A DNA stretch of 22,542 nucleotides from positions 1 to 22,542 of the IMG/VR virus record IMGVR_UViG_3300014625_000037, one strand, 5' to 3'. This document shows, piece by piece, positions 11,666 to 21,096 of the stretch (positions are counted from its first letter, which is position 1; each line of letters starts with the position of its first letter). The translations under genes were made by a program, and so were the position numbers. The notes beneath the pieces are model-generated. The model was not told where the DNA came from. It ran no database searches and worked only from the letters and a program-made list of their open reading frames with translations. Origin of the DNA: a virus (Duplodnaviria; Heunggongvirae; Uroviricota; Caudoviricetes).

Positions 11666-12670
11666 TTATTCTTCTGAATCATCATAAACATCCATTCCTT
11701 CGGTCTGATTTCTAATATAAGAAGCCCCCATAGAATTAGCAATCGCAGTCCGAATTAACCCTACATGAGTGAAAAACACCCCTAACCTAGCACGCTTTAA
11801 CTCAGACTCATCATCATAGTCATCTTCATTACTTATAATTCTTCTAACCATTGCCTTATCTTCGTCAATAGCCGAAGGTAGCCCACTCTTTAAAGCGTCA
11901 ATACACTCACCTACAGTTATAATTTTATTTTTAATTAATTCAGAAAGCAAATCATCATAATTTTCATCATCAGATTTATTATCAGGTGGTAATTCACTTG
12001 CAGCTATCATTTTCAGCAATTCTACGTCAAGCATAGTTCCTCTATCTAGTCTGCTTGTCTCAACATACCCCTCACGCTCTGATAACACTCTTTCAAATTC
12101 GAAATCAACGACTTCAAGCAAAGCAGATACTCTATTAATTGCTCGCCTAAGAGGAAGTGGAACACTTTGCTCTTTTTTGTATTGCAGTTTATGAGATGCT
12201 GCAGCCCAAATATGCTGAGAAAGCGTTCGTATTTGCACCTCCACTTTCATATTTTTAAAATCACTAAAGGATGGAACTCTTAGCCATTCTTCTGGAGGTT
12301 GTATTACATAATGATGAGATTGGTACCCAAATCTATCCTCATCCAGTTCATCAAGTTTATTCTCTTGCTTCAAAATAATGAAATGTTCTTTCAGACAAGA
12401 TATAACCTTTTCAACATCTCGCTTAAATAGCATTATTAATCGGATTCCAACATAATCATCCAAGTCAACTATTGACTCAATCTTTAGAGGTTTTCGGTTA
12501 TCCTTATTAATAATAGAACTTAATGTTTTGACACGGCTTTCAATTGGAACCCCTAAAGACAATTTATTCTCCGACAAAATAACATCAATTTGCTCAACCA
12601 TAACTCGTCTGAACAATTCCGCAACTGAGCCGTAAATTGAATGCTGTTCTTTTAATTCTTCGTCTGTCAT
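11666..12670 (-). CDS. RelA/SpoT-domain nucleotidyltransferase, 334 aa (candidate fused toxSAS/CapRel-like defence protein or small alarmone synthetase)
   Basis: ATG at 12670 with AGGTAAGA upstream. Synthetase-domain motifs RVKTLSS (46-52), DYVGIRL (72-78), GYQSHH (115-120), EVQIRTLSQHIWAAASH (144-160). C-terminal ~150 aa acidic domain without obvious motif. AT-rich. No adjacent small ORF. Confidence 0.75.
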   Translation of the reverse strand: MTDEELKEQHSIYGSVAELFRRVMVEQIDVILSENKLSLGVPIESRVKTLSSIINKDNRKPLKIESIVDLDDYVGIRLIMLFKRDVEKVISCLKEHFIILKQENKLDELDEDRFGYQSHHYVIQPPEEWLRVPSFSDFKNMKVEVQIRTLSQHIWAAASHKLQYKKEQSVPLPLRRAINRVSALLEVVDFEFERVLSEREGYVETSRLDRGTMLDVELLKMIAASELPPDNKSDDENYDDLLSELIKNKIITVGECIDALKSGLPSAIDEDKAMVRRIISNEDDYDDESELKRARLGVFFTHVGLIRTAIANSMGASYIRNQTEGMDVYDDSEE

Positions 12671-12806: not shown

Positions 12807-12966
12807 TGCCCGCTTTATGTAGCGGTTTTCATGCGCCTGCATGACATAAGCAAAATCCCGCCACTCCTGGCGGGCCTCAGCTAAAACGATCCTCAAACGA
12901 TCATGCGGATTCATGCGGCATAGACATGCACAATCTCCAAAGCGAGCATCGAGACTTTTTGGAAAC

Positions 12967-13578
12967 CTACGTAACCACAGTTAATGTGTGCATCCTGTCT
13001 CGAATTGCATCACACGTCTCATCAAAAAGCTTGATGATGGTTGTATGGTTCAACTCCGCCTCTTTCCAATAATTTTGCCCGTCAAATTCTGGATCGCTAT
13101 GCTTAAACGATATTGACTCTGAAAGGCATTCCTTCCGGAAACGGTCCAAGATTATATAAACCTCTGGTGAGATGAACGGTTTGTTAGATTCAACACTTGT
13201 AACAAAAGTGTTAAATGCATCAGAAAAAACTTTCAACCTTCTAAATTTTCTCTCTTCAAATGGTTCGTTGGGGTCAACATGATCCAGCGCAGGCCTCAGC
13301 TTAAGCACGCTTTCTCTGGTTTCAAACATCGAATTCCAAATGAGACTATATGCTGATAACTCCTTATCAAAATACGCTTTCGTTACATAAACAGAATTGT
13401 CTAACTTAGCCTTTATTCTTTCATTAGTTGCACTCAGTTGTGATTGAAATTCAGCAATATCTTTGTTTAGCCGCGACTTATATCTTTCTAAATAAACTTT
13501 CCCGATCCAAACAAATATGCCAGATGCAACAAAAGACACCCCACCCAACGAAGCCAGAACTTTAAAGACTAAATCCAT
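12967..13578 (-). CDS. Hypothetical membrane-anchored protein, 203 aa (single N-terminal TM helix)
   Basis: ATG at 13578; N-terminal hydrophobic segment VLASLGGVSFVASGIFVWIG followed by a ~170-aa soluble domain; AT-rich; sits beside cos at the position P2 uses for old/tin. Confidence 0.65.
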   Translation of the reverse strand: MDLVFKVLASLGGVSFVASGIFVWIGKVYLERYKSRLNKDIAEFQSQLSATNERIKAKLDNSVYVTKAYFDKELSAYSLIWNSMFETRESVLKLRPALDHVDPNEPFEERKFRRLKVFSDAFNTFVTSVESNKPFISPEVYIILDRFRKECLSESISFKHSDPEFDGQNYWKEAELNHTTIIKLFDETCDAIRDRMHTLTVVT

Positions 13579-13626
13579 TGCGCCCCCACCTGCAAAAATA
13601 GTATTCCATTATAAGCTAATACATTT

Positions 13627-13842
13627 TTAATCAAACAGGGGATAATTCGCGTCAACCTCATCACTTCTCTGCTCTACCCTAGTGACTTCCATCAAAAACC
13701 CCAGGCCGTCATATAGCGAAACGGGGAATTCCAGCTCAAGCCAGAAGCAGTCTTCATAGATGCGGCCCAACCAAAAACCTCCGCCACACTCCTTTGGGCG
13801 TTGAAAGAAGACCCAGTCGCCAAGGGTTAAACGTTCCAGCAC
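13627..13842 (-). CDS. Questionable 71-aa ORF (GTG start)
   Basis: Only a GTG start; no convincing RBS found; could be a gene remnant. Confidence 0.2.
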   Translation of the reverse strand: MLERLTLGDWVFFQRPKECGGGFWLGRIYEDCFWLELEFPVSLYDGLGFLMEVTRVEQRSDEVDANYPLFD

Positions 13843-13960
13843 CTAGCCCCGATAAATAATCTGGTGATTACTGTCTTTTTTACCCATGGCTAACGCCTCG
13901 CTACTCTCGTTGTTCAACCTTGCTGACGTCAGATTCAAGTTCTTACATCAGGAACGTTCC

Positions 13961-14194
13961 TTAGTGCAGCCAGCTGTCGTCTTCCCAAACCTGTTGCATA
14001 ATTTCCATCACCCGCTTTTTGTCTTCATCAAGCTTTAAGCCACTCAGCTCAACGCCGTTTGCCGACCCTTTACGGATGCGGATAGCGGTCTTGGGATAGA
14101 TGGGTTGCAGGTTGCGGTAAAGCTCGGACTCCAGAGCGTCCAGGGTAGACTGGCTAATCTTCTGCTCTTTATCGATCATTATTTCAATGCGCAT
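13961..14194 (-). CDS. DinI-like protein
   Basis: Preferred start MRIEIMID... at ATG 14194 with GAGGTGA upstream; 77 aa; N-terminus and C-terminal ...EIMQQVWEDDSW resemble E. coli DinI (MRIEVTIAK...ILQETWESADDW) from memory. Confidence 0.75.
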   Translation of the reverse strand: MRIEIMIDKEQKISQSTLDALESELYRNLQPIYPKTAIRIRKGSANGVELSGLKLDEDKKRVMEIMQQVWEDDSWLH

Positions 14195-14204
14195 AAAAGT
14201 CACC

Positions 14205-14393
14205 TCAGCTGATGACATCCATTGAGCGGTTGTATTCGTGGCTTCTGATTTTTGCCATGAGTTCATCAGTCAATTCAGAAACCCACTGCAGGGCCAGCCC
14301 CTTCTCTTCATCACTACACTCACTAGCCGCTACAAGCTTAAGAAAAAAATCAATGCGCTGGAGCTTCAAAGACTCCAAAAAATAGTCCTGCAT
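14205..14393 (-). CDS. Small hypothetical protein (62 aa), first gene of SOS-regulated operon; possible antirepressor
   Basis: ATG at 14393 preceded by TAGGAGGAAAG; the longer track ORF (to 14495) would place the LexA box inside the coding sequence, so it is rejected. Confidence 0.55.
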   Translation of the reverse strand: MQDYFLESLKLQRIDFFLKLVAASECSDEEKGLALQWVSELTDELMAKIRSHEYNRSMDVIS

Positions 14394-14434
14394 CTTTCCT
14401 CCTATGACACCGCAAACAATACTGTATAGATAAC

Positions 14435-14454
14435 CACTGTTTATATTTACAGTA
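14435..14454. promoter_or_regulatory. LexA (SOS) box
   Basis: cACTGTttatatttACAGTa read directly; matches consensus TACTGT-N8-ACAGTA (CTGT-N8-ACAG). Lies 42-61 nt upstream of the small ORF start on the transcribed strand, overlapping candidate -10 TATACT. Confidence 0.7.
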
Positions 14455-14546
14455 TATGATAATCTTACTGATGTAAAACGTTTTTTTACGTTCATCAGCC
14501 TGATATGCCTGGTATTATTAAGAGCACGAATTGTTAACCCGCGTAA

Positions 14547-16919
14547 TTAATACAGGTTCCGCCACTTATCATCTTCCTGCAAACGCTGGTTCCGATAGAA
14601 GACACGCAGGCCTGCTCCTGACGGAATACTGCCGCCGCGAAGGAGTAAATCGACCTCTTTCTCGCTGCCATCAAATCCTCTGGACTTCAGTTCATAGACG
14701 AGCTGCTGTCGTTGATGGTCTGTAATTCGCTGTTTGTAGTCTCTACGCCGTTTCGGTTTCACCAGGCGTAACCTTGCAGCCAGTTCCCGGCGCTCTTTTT
14801 TGTTCATACTGTGCAGGTAATCGTGCAACTCCTTGTCATCCATGTGGGTAATGTCCGTTCTGGTATCCCCATCAGCTGATTTGTCTTTCCCTTGTTGGTT
14901 CAAATTTTCAGCAAGGGGACAGTTATTGCCACGAGTCCAAGGGGCGCAAGCGCCCTGGTCGGCTGCCGCCTCCTGAACATCAACGGCCTTACGAACCATT
15001 TTCCACTTCACGGCATGAGTGCAGATCTTGCCCTCTGCAATAGGTGACCAGATGCCATAAATACGAATGCCGTGATCGCCATAGGCGGTCGGCTCTTCGT
15101 TGATTTCATAAGCGGTTCTGATGAGGTGATATTTGCGGGGAACCAGTACGCCGCCCTGCTTCATGATGTAGGTGGCAAAACAACCAGCATCAGCAGCAGC
15201 CAGGATGGCATCAAGGCGTGGGTTATCCAGTACCGGCGCACCTGCTTTTTTGTCCCCCTGTTGCCTTGCCGCCTGACCAGCCAGCAATCGCAGTTCACGG
15301 TAAGCCTGACGCCCCGGAATGCCAAAGAAACGGAATTGCTGAACACGATGCAGAGACGCCCAGGCATTAACGTATTCAGCATTATCACGCAGGGATTTCC
15401 CCGTTTCCTTGCTGATCTCGCCAGCCAGACCACGCCCGTCAATGTTCTTACTGATGTATTTCGCGATGTAGCTTGTTGGCGTTCCTTTGCGCGGGTTAAT
15501 CAACTCAGACTTAAAGCGCGGCCCAGTGTTATTGCCCAGCTCCTCGCGGTCTTCACGGATGGCAAACTTACGCAGTAATGCAGTGATGGCACGGCGGTCT
15601 TTTTTGCGCATGAAACACAACAGGTGCCAGTGAACTGTGCCGTCATGATGCGGCTCAGCCACCCGCACGCCATACCAGCGCAACCCGGCTTTGTGCATCG
15701 CCTTACGAAATGCAGCAAACATGCCGACCAGATAATCGCTGCTTTGTCTTACCGTCGCGTTTGTCCAGGTCGGGTTTGGTCTGCCGTTATTGAGCGTGGA
15801 ATGGAAACGTGACGGACAGGTGATGGTGTAGAAAACGGCGCAGTCACCGCGCATTTCCGCGATAAGCTCCAGACCTTTAACACAGGCCATCATCTCATTG
15901 CGGCGATGCGCCGGGTTGCTGCTGCTGGCGTTTACCACATCCTCCATGTCCAGCGTGTCGCCGTCTTCGTTCACCAGTTCATGAGAACGGAAAAACTCCA
16001 GCGACTTACGGCGCTGCTCACGTTTATGCATCACGGCTTCATAGCTGACATAGGGAGATGCTTTTTTGCTGACCAGGCAGACAGCACGCAACTGCTCTTC
16101 CCGCCATTCGCAACGCATCTTCCATAATTTCCGGTACCACCAGTCAGCGCACAACATACGCGCCAGCGAACCCGGAATGAGTTCATAGGGCACGGGTTTA
16201 CGGCGGTTTCTTTTCCGGCGGAGTTGCTCAAACGCAGGCGGGATGACATCCAGACGCAGGGTTTCCGCTGCCACCTTTTCCCATGTCTTGCGGATTTCTT
16301 CTGGCTTAACGTCATCGGTGACATACAAATCGCCACAAGCTGCATCAAGGCACATGCTCATATGCGCAGCTACCAGGGTGGACAGGCGTTTCACCTGATC
16401 CTGACTCATTTCAGGCAGGATCAGCAGGCCGTCCAGCCCTTCATGGCTTGCCATAAAGCGAAAAGAAGTGGATAGCTGACAGTCGCGTACATGCTCCAGC
16501 CGTTCCAGACATGGCTTAATCGTCTCACGCAAATAGCGGGAATAAGCCTTTGGCCTGCCCAGGCTGCTGAAGTATTCAATACGTTGCATCAGCGGCTTGC
16601 TGATATGGGAAGGCTGGGCATTGACGTCCGCCAGAATGACCATATCTGGATTAAAACGCTGCTGCTCATGCGCCAGCTTTGCCCGACTAATGAGCTTATC
16701 CTGCTCCATTTCGCGCTGGACAGGATCACGGGATTCATTAAAGAAATAACGCTCCCAGACCTGATCACTCAGTGCCTCGCGGCGCAGCTGTTCCTGCTCG
16801 TTATCGGCAGCGTACAGAGCGATCAGGTTTGAAAGCGCAGAAACTGAAGATTGCTCTTCTGTCTCTACGTAAGGATTGATTGCTTTTTTCTCAGCATTCC
16901 AGGAATAGCTGTAGTTCAT
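14547..16919 (-). CDS. A: Replication initiation protein A (rolling-circle nickase)
   Basis: Track ORF has a TTG start at 16970; ATG at 16919 (MNYSYSW...) overlaps the upstream stop (TAATG). About 790 aa, size and position as P2/186 gene A. Confidence 0.85.
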
Positions 16920-17749
16920 TACGCAATCTCCAGTTCGAGCTGTGAAGGCTGCAAACCATTCGACAGCCAATCAGAAACTGAAGGTGGGCGAACAGCTTCA
17001 ATTGCACCTTTTAAAATTGCGCAACGGTTTTTCAGAATGACAGCTTTCAGCTCCTTTTCCGTCAGATTGCGCGAATACTCAGCCTCCTGAATAGCCCGCG
17101 TCAGCTCAGGATATTTGCTATTAAATTTGGGGACATTGCAGGCAAGATTTGTACTGTCGGCAGTCGCCAGTGGGTAATTTCCCAACACACGACCGTCAAG
17201 CATGCGCAAACCATGAACAGCTGTTTTGAAATTGTGTCGGCAATAAATTGCTTCAAAAGCGTCCTGCATACGATGATGCCAGTGCGCAGTTCTGATAGCC
17301 GCATATTCACCAGACGATCCAAAGCAGACACGAGGCCATTCACGACATAGCTCGATAAGCCGATCGATTGACTCGTGCAGATGCCAGACGGGAGTTGCCT
17401 TCCCGTAGAACATTTTCGGAACTTCGTTTATCAGGGCATCATTGTCACGTTCACCTCCGTCCACAACATCAGGAATGACAAAAAAAGCGACCTTAGGATG
17501 GTGGTAATAGTTCAGGAGCCATTTATAAAAATCACTCCAGTTAATTTTTAGCCCACGCACCCATGCAGAAAATGCGCCGTTATCAATGCCGACGACCTGA
17601 GCGTGCTGAATGGACGCCGCAATCTGATCTGGTCGTACATAGGAGACGAAAGCGCCAGCTCCGCTCACCGCAATACGATGAACGTCGCCAGCACTTCCCC
17701 AGACAGGCGTCCCATGGAAATGATGAATTCCGTGGTGCATTTCTTTCAC
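16919..17749 (-). CDS. Hypothetical early protein, 276 aa, translationally coupled between Dam and A
   Basis: GTG at 17749 overlapping the Dam stop, or ATG at 17740; His-rich N-terminus; no family recognised with confidence. Confidence 0.6.
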
Positions 17750-20526: not shown

Positions 20527-21096
20527 ATGAATTTGGAGAAAGGCGGACGAGGCGCTATAGAGCGCATGGTAGAAGCTTATGGATTCAAAACTCGACAGGC
20601 GTTGTGCGATCATTTAGGAATCTCTAAAAGTACACTCGCCACACGCTACATGCGTGACTCATTCCCAGCAGAATGGGTAATCCAGTGCGCCCTTGAAACG
20701 GGCACCTCGCTTAATTGGCTCACAACCGGACATGGTTCAAAGCAAACTTCAGGTAATACAAATACTATGGAAGTTGCTAAATATGTATTATCTGATGGTG
20801 CCTTGCGTGAAGACGGTTTTTATATTTTTGATAAGGGATTTCTACCCTCTACGTTTAAAAAACCTTTTGTCATCACAGATAACAATTCTGAATTTATTTG
20901 TGATAAAGAATTTGATGATATACGTGACGGTAAATGGGTAATAAGTATTGATGGCGAAATAACAATCCGCGACATTACTCGTTTACCCGGTGGAAGAATC
21001 TTCGTTGAAGGTGGAAACAGAGCCTTCGAGTGCAAGATAGAAGATGTTGAAATAATTGGGAAAATTATAAGTTTAACAATTAAGTACGTTAGGTAA
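20527..21096 (+). CDS. cI: CI-type immunity repressor (186 CI family)
   Basis: ATG 20527 with GGAG 5 nt upstream; 189 aa, size and N-terminal HTH region consistent with 186 CI; upstream of and co-directional with int. Confidence 0.8.
   Translation: MNLEKGGRGAIERMVEAYGFKTRQALCDHLGISKSTLATRYMRDSFPAEWVIQCALETGTSLNWLTTGHGSKQTSGNTNTMEVAKYVLSDGALREDGFYIFDKGFLPSTFKKPFVITDNNSEFICDKEFDDIRDGKWVISIDGEITIRDITRLPGGRIFVEGGNRAFECKIEDVEIIGKIISLTIKYVR

What the first reader, a model, noticed from the sequence alone, without database searches (positions are those of the whole stretch)
13961..14500. Near-consensus LexA box driving a two-gene operon (62-aa ORF plus DinI-like) - likely SOS induction module
cACTGTttatatttACAGTa (14435-14454) is an almost perfect SOS box placed just upstream of a strongly RBS-supported 62-aa ORF, followed by a DinI homolog. 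In coliphage 186 the SOS-controlled antirepressor operon (tum) occupies this same position between A and cos, and to my recollection includes a DinI-related ORF. The 62-aa protein is far shorter than Tum (146 aa), so it may be a distinct small antirepressor.
Basis: partly seen in the sequence, partly recalled or inferred. Interest (0 to 1): 0.55.

Follow-up and report, generated by a model that had tools for sequence, protein, structure and literature searches.

The report
Split Tum SOS antirepressor operon (tumA-tumB)
This is the DNA-damage switch of a P2/186-like prophage: a LexA-repressed promoter driving a small antirepressor gene and a DinI-like gene. The same arrangement is already described in phages PSP3 and Fels-2, so the finding is correct but ordinary.

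Summary
A LexA box (14435-14454) is the only CTGT-N8-ACAG in the window and overlaps a putative promoter. It sits 41 nt upstream of a 62-aa gene (14393..14205, minus strand), followed by a 77-aa DinI-family gene (14194..13961). The module lies just downstream of the gpA replication gene (gpA-to-cos position by synteny with Cartapus and 186) in a Peduoviridae prophage with a 186-type CI repressor.

The 62-aa protein is not a distinct antirepressor. It is homologous to the N-terminal half of coliphage 186 Tum (hhalign probability 94.5%, E 7.5e-8, plus shared PHROG hits). It is 96.8% identical to Fels-2 STM2728. The DinI-like protein matches Tum's C-terminal half (43% identity).

PSP3 carries the same split pair, annotated tumA ("UV induction of prophage") and tumB. 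Lemire et al. 2011 state that Fels-2 and PSP3 have tum split in two, with the upstream gene carrying antirepressor activity in PSP3.

A LexA box precedes tum/tumA in all 10 phages compared. The module matches 1126 of 5426 complete E. coli genomes.

Verdict: already known, low interest. One side observation is new: an identical TumA core is paired with CI repressors that share only 25-41% identity in the C-terminal domain but 67-78% in the N-terminal domain. This hints that TumA targets the N-terminal domain.

The parts
14435..14454 (-). LexA (SOS) box, TACTGTAAATATAAACAGTG on the coding strand; 41 nt lie between the box and the tumA ATG
   Evidence: the only match in the window, 0 of 100 shuffles; the identical box is in Fels-2 and Cartapus, and a CTG-N10-CAG box with 1-4 mismatches to the consensus precedes tum/tumA in all 10 phages compared.
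14449..14477 (-). Putative sigma-70 promoter: -35 TTTACA (14477..14472), 17-nt spacer, -10 TACTGT (14454..14449). The -10 is the first 6 bases of the LexA box, the same geometry as the annotated 186 p95. An alternative -10, TATACT (14456..14451), has a 15-nt spacer.
   Evidence: Read from the sequence and by analogy with the p95 annotation in NC_001317, where the -10 coincides with the start of the LexA site. The generic promoter scan did not report it because the -10 matches only 3 of 6 consensus positions. Inferred, not shown.
14205..14393 (-). tumA-like gene: 62 aa, predicted antirepressor, homologous to the N-terminal half of 186 Tum; Shine-Dalgarno AGGAGG at 14403..14398
   Evidence: phrog_698 E 5.9e-38; 186 Tum residues 7-44 also hit phrog_698 (2.7e-5), and both proteins hit phrog_8554 and phrog_1993. 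hhalign of the family profile against 186 Tum: probability 94.5%, E 7.5e-8, Tum residues 5-45. 96.8% identical to Fels-2 STM2728. dN/dS 0.06-0.09. AlphaFold model is a two-helix hairpin, pLDDT 86.9.
13961..14194 (-). tumB-like gene: 77 aa, DinI family, equivalent to the C-terminal half of 186 Tum; Shine-Dalgarno GAGGTG (14206..14201) overlaps the tumA stop codon
   Evidence: Pfam DinI 2e-24. 43% identity to 186 Tum residues 71-145, E 2e-25. 70 of 77 residues identical to PSP3 TumB, counted from the two translations. dN/dS 0.03-0.08.
20527..21096 (+). 186-type CI immunity repressor (189 aa), the presumed target of TumA
   Evidence: Pfam Phage_CI_repr 2.7e-33 and Phage_CI_C 2e-28. The Peptidase_S24 hit is below its cut-off, 16.7 against 23.3 bits. 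32% identical to 186 CI.
14547..16970 (-). gpA replication endonuclease, immediately upstream; fixes the module at the same genome position as 186 tum

Best explanation
This is the SOS induction operon of a 186-type P2-like prophage, in its split tumA-tumB form.

In an undamaged lysogen, LexA binds the box at 14435-14454. The box overlaps the -10 of the promoter, so the operon stays off. DNA damage activates RecA and LexA cleaves itself. The promoter then fires and two small proteins are made.

TumA (62 aa, a two-helix hairpin) is the antirepressor. It binds the non-cleavable 186-type CI repressor (20527-21096) non-covalently and stops it from binding its operators. The early lytic promoter is then derepressed and the prophage is induced.

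TumB (77 aa, DinI-like) most likely binds RecA filaments and tunes the strength or duration of the SOS signal. It probably does not act on CI.

Shown here: the box, the genes, their homology, their conservation and selection, and the CI domain architecture. Inferred from 186, PSP3 and Fels-2: LexA binding, SOS-dependent transcription, the TumA-CI interaction and the role of TumB.
For: The LexA box is unique in the window and beats all shuffles. The box is kept 38-67 nt upstream of tum/tumA in 10 of 10 phages, including 186, PSP3, ESSI-2 and a Yersinia phage whose flanking sequence is unrelated.

The 186 record annotates the same layout after gene A: p95, a LexA site overlapping the -10, then tum ('expression repressed by LexA; inhibits CI DNA binding'). 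It also annotates internal starts that give DinI-like truncated products which 'modulate SOS induction'.

TumA is homologous to the Tum N-terminal half (and the alignment). TumB is homologous to the Tum C-terminal half. PSP3 annotates tumA as 'similar to 5' end 186 tum; UV induction of prophage' and tumB as 'similar to dinI and 3' end of 186 tum'.

Lemire et al. [quoted passage not shown] Typhimurium LT2 because of Fels-2 (citing Bunny et al. 2002).

CI has the 186-type domains and no significant S24 peptidase domain. TumA-like genes with a LexA box also occur without any DinI gene after them. This fits TumA being the self-sufficient induction factor.
Against: Nothing was tested functionally for this protein type. 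The only direct statement that a stand-alone TumA is the antirepressor concerns PSP3, it is a personal communication relayed in the literature, and I could not open its source (Bunny et al. 2002). PSP3 TumA is only weakly similar to this one: hhalign E 0.0048 over 28 columns, probability 7%.

The proposed -10 hexamer is weak, and the generic promoter scan did not call the promoter. No clear terminator follows tumB, so the operon's 3' end is uncertain. Read-through from gene A cannot be excluded.
Confidence: 0.88

Rival explanations
1. The module is SOS-controlled, but the 62-aa protein is not the antirepressor. It could be a partner or modulator of the DinI-like protein or of RecA/LexA, with induction depending on something else.
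For: There is no experiment on this protein type. Homology to the Tum N-terminal half is remote: about 18% identity in the core, and pairwise BLASTP finds nothing. Some databases carry other names for it, such as 'levan regulatory protein'.
Against: Profile comparisons are significant and fall in one register. The gene keeps its LexA box even where no DinI gene follows it. The window has no other LexA box. The CI has no detectable autocleavage domain, so some antirepressor is needed if the prophage is SOS-inducible.
Confidence: 0.07
2. The LexA box and ORFs are a decayed remnant with no current role, in a non-inducible or defective prophage.
For: The gene just downstream of tumB carries a premature TAG relative to phage Cartapus, so some decay has happened in this copy. 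The window does not show the whole prophage.
Against: tumA and tumB are intact. tumB encodes a protein identical to that of the isolated phage Cartapus, and tumA differs by one residue. The box is identical to that of Fels-2 and Cartapus. Both genes are under strong purifying selection.
Confidence: 0.04
3. The split is only apparent: a programmed frameshift near the tumA stop codon fuses TumA and TumB into one 186-like Tum protein.
For: The DinI reading frame is open upstream into tumA (the 101-aa ORF 13961..14266). The summed length, 62 + 77 aa, is close to Tum's 146 aa. A small hairpin spans the junction.
Against: tumB has its own Shine-Dalgarno (GAGGTG) and ATG 6 nt downstream. I saw no slippery heptamer when reading the junction by eye. 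The junction hairpin folds no better than shuffled sequence (z -0.94). The same split is annotated in PSP3, Fels-2, SopEPhi, Cartapus and others. TumA genes also exist with no DinI gene after them.
Confidence: 0.01

Closest known systems
Coliphage 186 SOS operon: p95, LexA site, tum (Tum, 146 aa antirepressor)
   Same: Same genome position directly after gene A. LexA box overlapping the -10. The N-terminal Tum region is homologous to the 62-aa protein (hhalign E 7.5e-8). The C-terminal DinI-like region is 43% identical to the 77-aa protein. Same 186-type CI repressor family.
   Different: In 186 the two parts form one polypeptide, with internal starts that also give DinI-like truncated products. 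Here they are two genes in different reading frames. The TumA core is only about 18% identical to 186 Tum. The 186 orf97 gene is not found downstream.
Phage PSP3 tumA / tumB
   Same: The same split two-gene layout behind a LexA box. tumB is 70 of 77 residues identical to the window's DinI-like protein. tumA is annotated as responsible for UV induction.
   Different: PSP3 TumA (60 aa) belongs to a different sequence subgroup and resembles the window's TumA only weakly. PSP3 CI is 34% identical to the window's CI.
Salmonella prophage Fels-2, STM2728 and STM2726.1
   Same: TumA is 96.8% identical. The LexA box and promoter region are identical. The gene order is the same. Fels-2 is the prophage that makes lexA-null lethal in strain LT2.
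   Different: CI is only 38% identical overall: 67% in the N-terminal domain and 25% in the C-terminal domain. The cargo genes downstream differ.
Gifsy-1/2/3 dinI-gfoA/gftA LexA-controlled antirepressor operons (Lemire et al. 2011)
   Same: A LexA-repressed operon that pairs a DinI homologue with a small antirepressor acting on a non-cleavable repressor.
   Different: They are lambdoid phages and the gene order is reversed, with dinI first. I did not test sequence relatedness of GfoA/GftA to TumA.
E. coli chromosomal DinI
   Same: TumB meets the Pfam DinI family threshold and keeps the acidic C-terminal WEDDSW segment.
   Different: TumB scores 53.7 bits against a 111-bit cut-off for the NCBIfam DinI equivalog. 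It is a phage paralogue, not the host gene.

Membership tests
186-type Tum / TumA-TumB SOS antirepressor operon | LexA operator overlapping the promoter directly upstream of the gene | tested here: met
   Box at 14435-14454, unique in the window and absent from shuffles. Conserved in 10 of 10 related phages. Overlap with the -10 is read by analogy to the 186 p95 annotation.
186-type Tum / TumA-TumB SOS antirepressor operon | Located just after the gpA replication gene | tested here: met
   gpA ends at 14547 and tumA starts at 14393 on the same strand. The order is the same in 186, PSP3, Fels-2 and Cartapus.
186-type Tum / TumA-TumB SOS antirepressor operon | Sequence homology to the N-terminal (non-DinI) half of Tum | tested here: met
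   hhalign probability 94.5%, E 7.5e-8 over Tum residues 5-45. Reciprocal PHROG hits. Pairwise BLASTP alone finds nothing.
186-type Tum / TumA-TumB SOS antirepressor operon | DinI-like moiety fused to or directly following the antirepressor part | tested here: met
   Pfam DinI 2e-24. 43% identity to Tum residues 71-145.
186-type Tum / TumA-TumB SOS antirepressor operon | Cognate 186-type CI repressor that is not inactivated by RecA-stimulated autocleavage | tested here: inconclusive
   The domain architecture Phage_CI_repr + Phage_CI_C is met, and the S24 peptidase hit is below its cut-off. Non-cleavability itself cannot be tested here.
186-type Tum / TumA-TumB SOS antirepressor operon | The protein binds CI and prevents operator binding; the prophage is SOS-inducible through it | not testable with these tools
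   Known for 186 Tum (Shearwin et al. 1998, as cited) and reported for PSP3 TumA. Not tested for this protein.
DinI family (Pfam PF06183) | Score above the Pfam gathering threshold over the full domain | tested here: met
   86.1 bits against 24.2, profile positions 1-63 of 63.
Chromosomal DinI equivalog (NCBIfam NF007893) | Score above the equivalog cut-off | tested here: not met
   53.7 bits against 111. It is a DinI-like paralogue, not the host DinI.
Gifsy-type GfoA/GftA antirepressors | Sequence homology to GfoA/GftA, with dinI-first gene order | not tested
   The gene order here is the reverse of that described. The sequences were not compared.

The most novel reading that the evidence does not exclude
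One TumA allele may serve many immunity types. The TumA core is 100% identical in six phages including the window prophage. Yet the other five CI repressors share only 67-78% identity with the window's in the N-terminal HTH domain and 25-41% in the C-terminal domain.

Across 15 phages, TumA identity tracks the CI N-terminal domain even after controlling for the gpA backbone (partial r 0.57, p 6e-4). It does not track the C-terminal domain (partial r -0.06).

This would mean that TumA recognises a conserved surface of the CI DNA-binding domain, around RDSFPAEWVIQCALETG. SOS-induced TumA from one P2-like prophage could then cross-induce heteroimmune relatives in the same cell.
Probability: 0.35. 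Interest if true: 0.4.

Novelty: already known. Interest (0 to 1): 0.15.

Why it matters
As a discovery it matters little. The split tum operon has been recognised in Fels-2 and PSP3 since the early 2000s, and this copy is 97% identical to the Fels-2 one.

The practical value is in annotation. The 62-aa gene has no Pfam or NCBIfam family, PHROG 698 lists it as 'unknown function', and RefSeq calls it 'hypothetical protein'. Yet the module matches 1126 of 5426 complete E. coli genomes. Labelling it 'TumA-like SOS antirepressor' would flag which P2-like prophages are likely to be induced by DNA-damaging antibiotics.

The observation that TumA and CI vary independently could guide mapping of the antirepressor-repressor interface.

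Tried and rejected
- **Pairwise BLASTP of the 62-aa protein against 186 Tum** found nothing. Homology appeared only with profiles.
- **Pfam, NCBIfam and PADLOC** gave no meaningful hit for the 62-aa protein.
- **PDB sequence search** with the family profile gave no hit at E <= 1.
- **AlphaFold model plus Foldseek against the PDB** gave only generic helical hairpins (ExoVII small subunit, designed coiled coils), none at E <= 0.001. This is not informative about function.
- **Hairpin at the tumA stop / tumB Shine-Dalgarno (14216..14199)**, flagged as terminator-like, folds no better than shuffles (z -0.94). I rejected it as a significant regulatory structure.
- **Terminator after tumB:** none is convincing. 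The first terminator-like hairpin on this strand is at 12874..12857.
- **Programmed-frameshift fusion of TumA and TumB:** rejected, see the rival explanations.
- **Bunny et al. 2002**, the primary source for the Fels-2 split tum, is not held in the library. Its content is cited only through Lemire 2011 and later papers.
- **Raw TumA ~ CI N-terminal-domain correlation (r 0.88):** this is largely backbone linkage, because TumA ~ gpA gives r 0.92. Only the partial correlation is used as weak evidence.

Full report
**What is there.** The window is a P2-like (Peduoviridae) prophage. Positions 12839-16844 are 97% identical to Escherichia phage Cartapus (genus Elveevirus) and 13965-16841 are about 86% identical to Salmonella prophage Fels-2. 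The finding lies on the minus strand. Reading 5' to 3' on that strand:

| Feature | Coordinates | Notes |
|---|---|---|
| gpA replication endonuclease | 16970..14547 | immediately upstream |
| Intergenic region | about 150 nt | contains TACTGTAAATATAAACAGTG at 14454..14435 |
| Shine-Dalgarno | 14403..14398 | AGGAGG |
| 62-aa ORF | 14393..14205 | putative tumA |
| Second Shine-Dalgarno | 14206..14201 | GAGGTG, overlaps the first gene's TGA stop |
| 77-aa ORF | 14194..13961 | putative tumB |

.

**Is it more than chance?**
- The box has 3 mismatches to the 20-mer LexA consensus. No such match occurred in 100 dinucleotide-preserving shuffles.
- It is the only CTGT-N8-ACAG in 22.5 kb, where shuffles expect 0.31.
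- I extracted the 130 nt upstream of tum/tumA from ten phages: the window, Cartapus, Fels-2, SopEPhi, Yersinia MLG42, ESSI2_ev040, ESSI-2, Yersinia YenM_06.16-2, PSP3 and 186. Every one has a CTG-N10-CAG box with 1-4 mismatches to the consensus, starting 38-67 nt before the start codon. This holds even where the surrounding sequence is unalignable.
- The 62-aa ORF is a real gene. dN/dS is 0.06-0.09 at dS of about 1 against SopEPhi and MLG42. The DinI-like gene gives 0.03-0.08.
- 484 homologues were found at E <= 0.01, all from Enterobacterales where a source names the organism.

**What the two proteins are.**
- The 77-aa protein is a DinI-family protein (Pfam E 2e-24). It is 43% identical to residues 71-145 of coliphage 186 Tum (E 2e-25).
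- The 62-aa protein has no Pfam or NCBIfam family. It belongs to phrog_698, listed as 'unknown function' (E 5.9e-38).
- 186 Tum residues 7-44 also hit phrog_698 (2.7e-5). Both proteins hit phrog_8554 (1.1e-8 and 1.4e-11) and phrog_1993 (0.002 and 1.4e-22).
- I built a profile from 27 diverse family members found in the 1.8-billion-protein representative library. It aligns to Tum residues 5-45 with hhalign probability 94.5%, E 7.5e-8.
- The shared core is visible by eye: [LV]x[LI][QE]R[IV]x[FLM][FI]x[KR]L.A...C...[DE][KR]x[LI]AL.[WL][IV][SA]E[LI].
- AlphaFold predicts a two-helix hairpin (helices 2-23 and 28-61, pLDDT 86.9). A Cys that is nearly invariant within the TumA family lies in the turn between the two helices.
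- So the window's two genes correspond to the two halves of the 146-aa Tum protein.

**What is already known.**
- The 186 record annotates promoter p95, a LexA site overlapping its -10, and tum ('expression repressed by LexA; inhibits CI DNA binding'). It also annotates shorter in-frame DinI-like products that 'modulate SOS induction'.
- The PSP3 record annotates tumA (60 aa, 'similar to 5' end 186 tum; UV induction of prophage') and tumB ('similar to dinI and 3' end of 186 tum').
- Lemire et al. [quoted passage not shown] They cite Bunny et al. 2002 and a personal communication from G. E. Christie.
- The window's 62-aa protein is 96.8% identical to Fels-2 STM2728. The Fels-2 LexA box is identical.
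[quoted passage not shown] Typhimurium LT2 because of Fels-2.
- In 186, the p95-tum module is used as a portable UV-induction cassette, and Tum is described as sequestering CI (PMC7708051).
- The finding is therefore a correct recognition of a described module, not a new one.

**Mechanism.**
- The window's CI (20527-21096) has the 186-type domains Phage_CI_repr and Phage_CI_C, and no significant S24 peptidase domain. RecA-stimulated self-cleavage is therefore not expected, and an antirepressor is needed for SOS induction. This is inferred from family knowledge.
- The promoter most likely uses TTTACA (14477..14472), a 17-nt spacer and TACTGT (14454..14449). The -10 is the first six bases of the LexA box, exactly as annotated for 186 p95. 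This is inferred; the generic scan did not call it.
- LexA cleavage should release transcription of tumA and tumB. TumA would then bind CI and block operator binding. TumB would act on RecA filaments.
- TumA-like genes with a LexA box exist without any DinI gene in ESSI-2, ESSI2_ev040 and YenM_06.16-2. This supports TumA being the autonomous induction factor and TumB an accessory.
- Lemire et al. also report that non-polar dinI deletions in Gifsy prophages had no significant effect on induction.

**Rivals.**
- A programmed frameshift fusing the two ORFs is unlikely. tumB has its own Shine-Dalgarno and ATG. I saw no slippery site when reading the junction. The junction hairpin is not significant (z -0.94).
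- A decayed remnant is unlikely given the intact genes, the box identical to that of an isolated phage, and the strong purifying selection.
- The 62-aa protein could have a role other than antirepression. This cannot be excluded without an experiment, but it is not favoured.

**A side result that is not in the literature I could read.**
- The window's backbone is nearly the same as in several phages: gpA 98.6-98.7%, CII 95-100% and TumA core 100% identical to Cartapus, 813R9, Kp4860-7 and Kp4846-2.
- The CI differs sharply from those four phages: 69-78% identity in the N-terminal HTH domain and 31-41% in the C-terminal domain.
- Over 15 phages, TumA core identity correlates with the CI N-terminal domain (r 0.88) and weakly with the C-terminal domain (r 0.39). 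It correlates even more with gpA (r 0.92), so much of the signal is backbone linkage.
- After controlling for gpA, the association with the N-terminal domain remains (partial r 0.57, permutation p 6e-4). The association with the C-terminal domain vanishes (-0.06).
- This is weak, phylogenetically non-independent evidence. It suggests that TumA contacts the conserved N-terminal domain and that one TumA allele may work on several immunity types. I give it as the most novel reading, not as a finding.

**Verdict.** Novelty: already known. Interest is low. The module matches 1126 of 5426 complete E. coli genomes, where RefSeq labels the 62-aa gene 'hypothetical protein' in the records I looked at. 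The main practical gain is a better name for it.

Noticed in passing
window 20527-21096 compared with tumA 14205-14393; loci L005, L006, L014-L019, L024: The CI immunity repressor is the hypervariable part of an otherwise near-identical backbone. The TumA core is 100% identical in six phages (including the window prophage) whose CI is only 67-78% (N-terminal domain) and 25-41% (C-terminal domain) identical to the window's. After controlling for gpA, TumA covaries with the CI N-terminal domain but not the C-terminal domain.
   Followed up: partly
window 13843-13845 (minus strand), in the ORF 13887..13627: The gene just downstream of tumB (phrog_2100; 86 aa in phage Cartapus) has a CAG-to-TAG change at codon 15 relative to Cartapus. 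A GTG follows directly and could restart a 71-aa product. RefSeq annotates no gene at the corresponding position in a genome whose tumA-tumB segment (window 13900-14560) is identical.
   Followed up: partly
window 11666-12670 (minus strand): A 334-aa protein with a RelA/SpoT nucleotidyltransferase domain (Pfam E 7.6e-20). It matches the PADLOC candidate defence model PDC-S33 (E 1.8e-16). It sits in the variable cargo slot between the tum operon and the portal gene, and is absent at this place in Cartapus and Fels-2. It may be a small-alarmone-synthetase-type defence or toxin gene.
   Followed up: partly
window 12967-13578 (minus strand): A 203-aa ORF also present in Cartapus. RefSeq names an ORF of the same length at the same position in a related E. 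coli prophage (not aligned here) 'valyl-tRNA synthetase'. The only support is a sub-threshold hit to the coiled-coil Val_tRNA-synt_C arm (16.7 bits against a 25.9 cut-off). This is probably a misannotation, and the true function is unknown. It may be co-transcribed with tumA-tumB, because no terminator-like hairpin appears on this strand before 12874..12857.
   Followed up: no
window 14411-14430 (minus strand), between the LexA box and the Shine-Dalgarno: A conserved extra half-site-like motif, TATACAGTA, lies about 8 nt downstream of the LexA box. It is kept in the window, Fels-2, SopEPhi and (minus the final A) MLG42; Cartapus has TATACAGTG. It is not a full CTG-N10-CAG site and its meaning is unknown.
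   Followed up: no
loci L009, L010, L011 (ESSI2_ev040, ESSI-2, YenM_06.16-2): TumA-like genes preceded by a LexA box but with no DinI-like gene after them. The DinI part is therefore dispensable for the module in some P2-like phages.
   Followed up: partly
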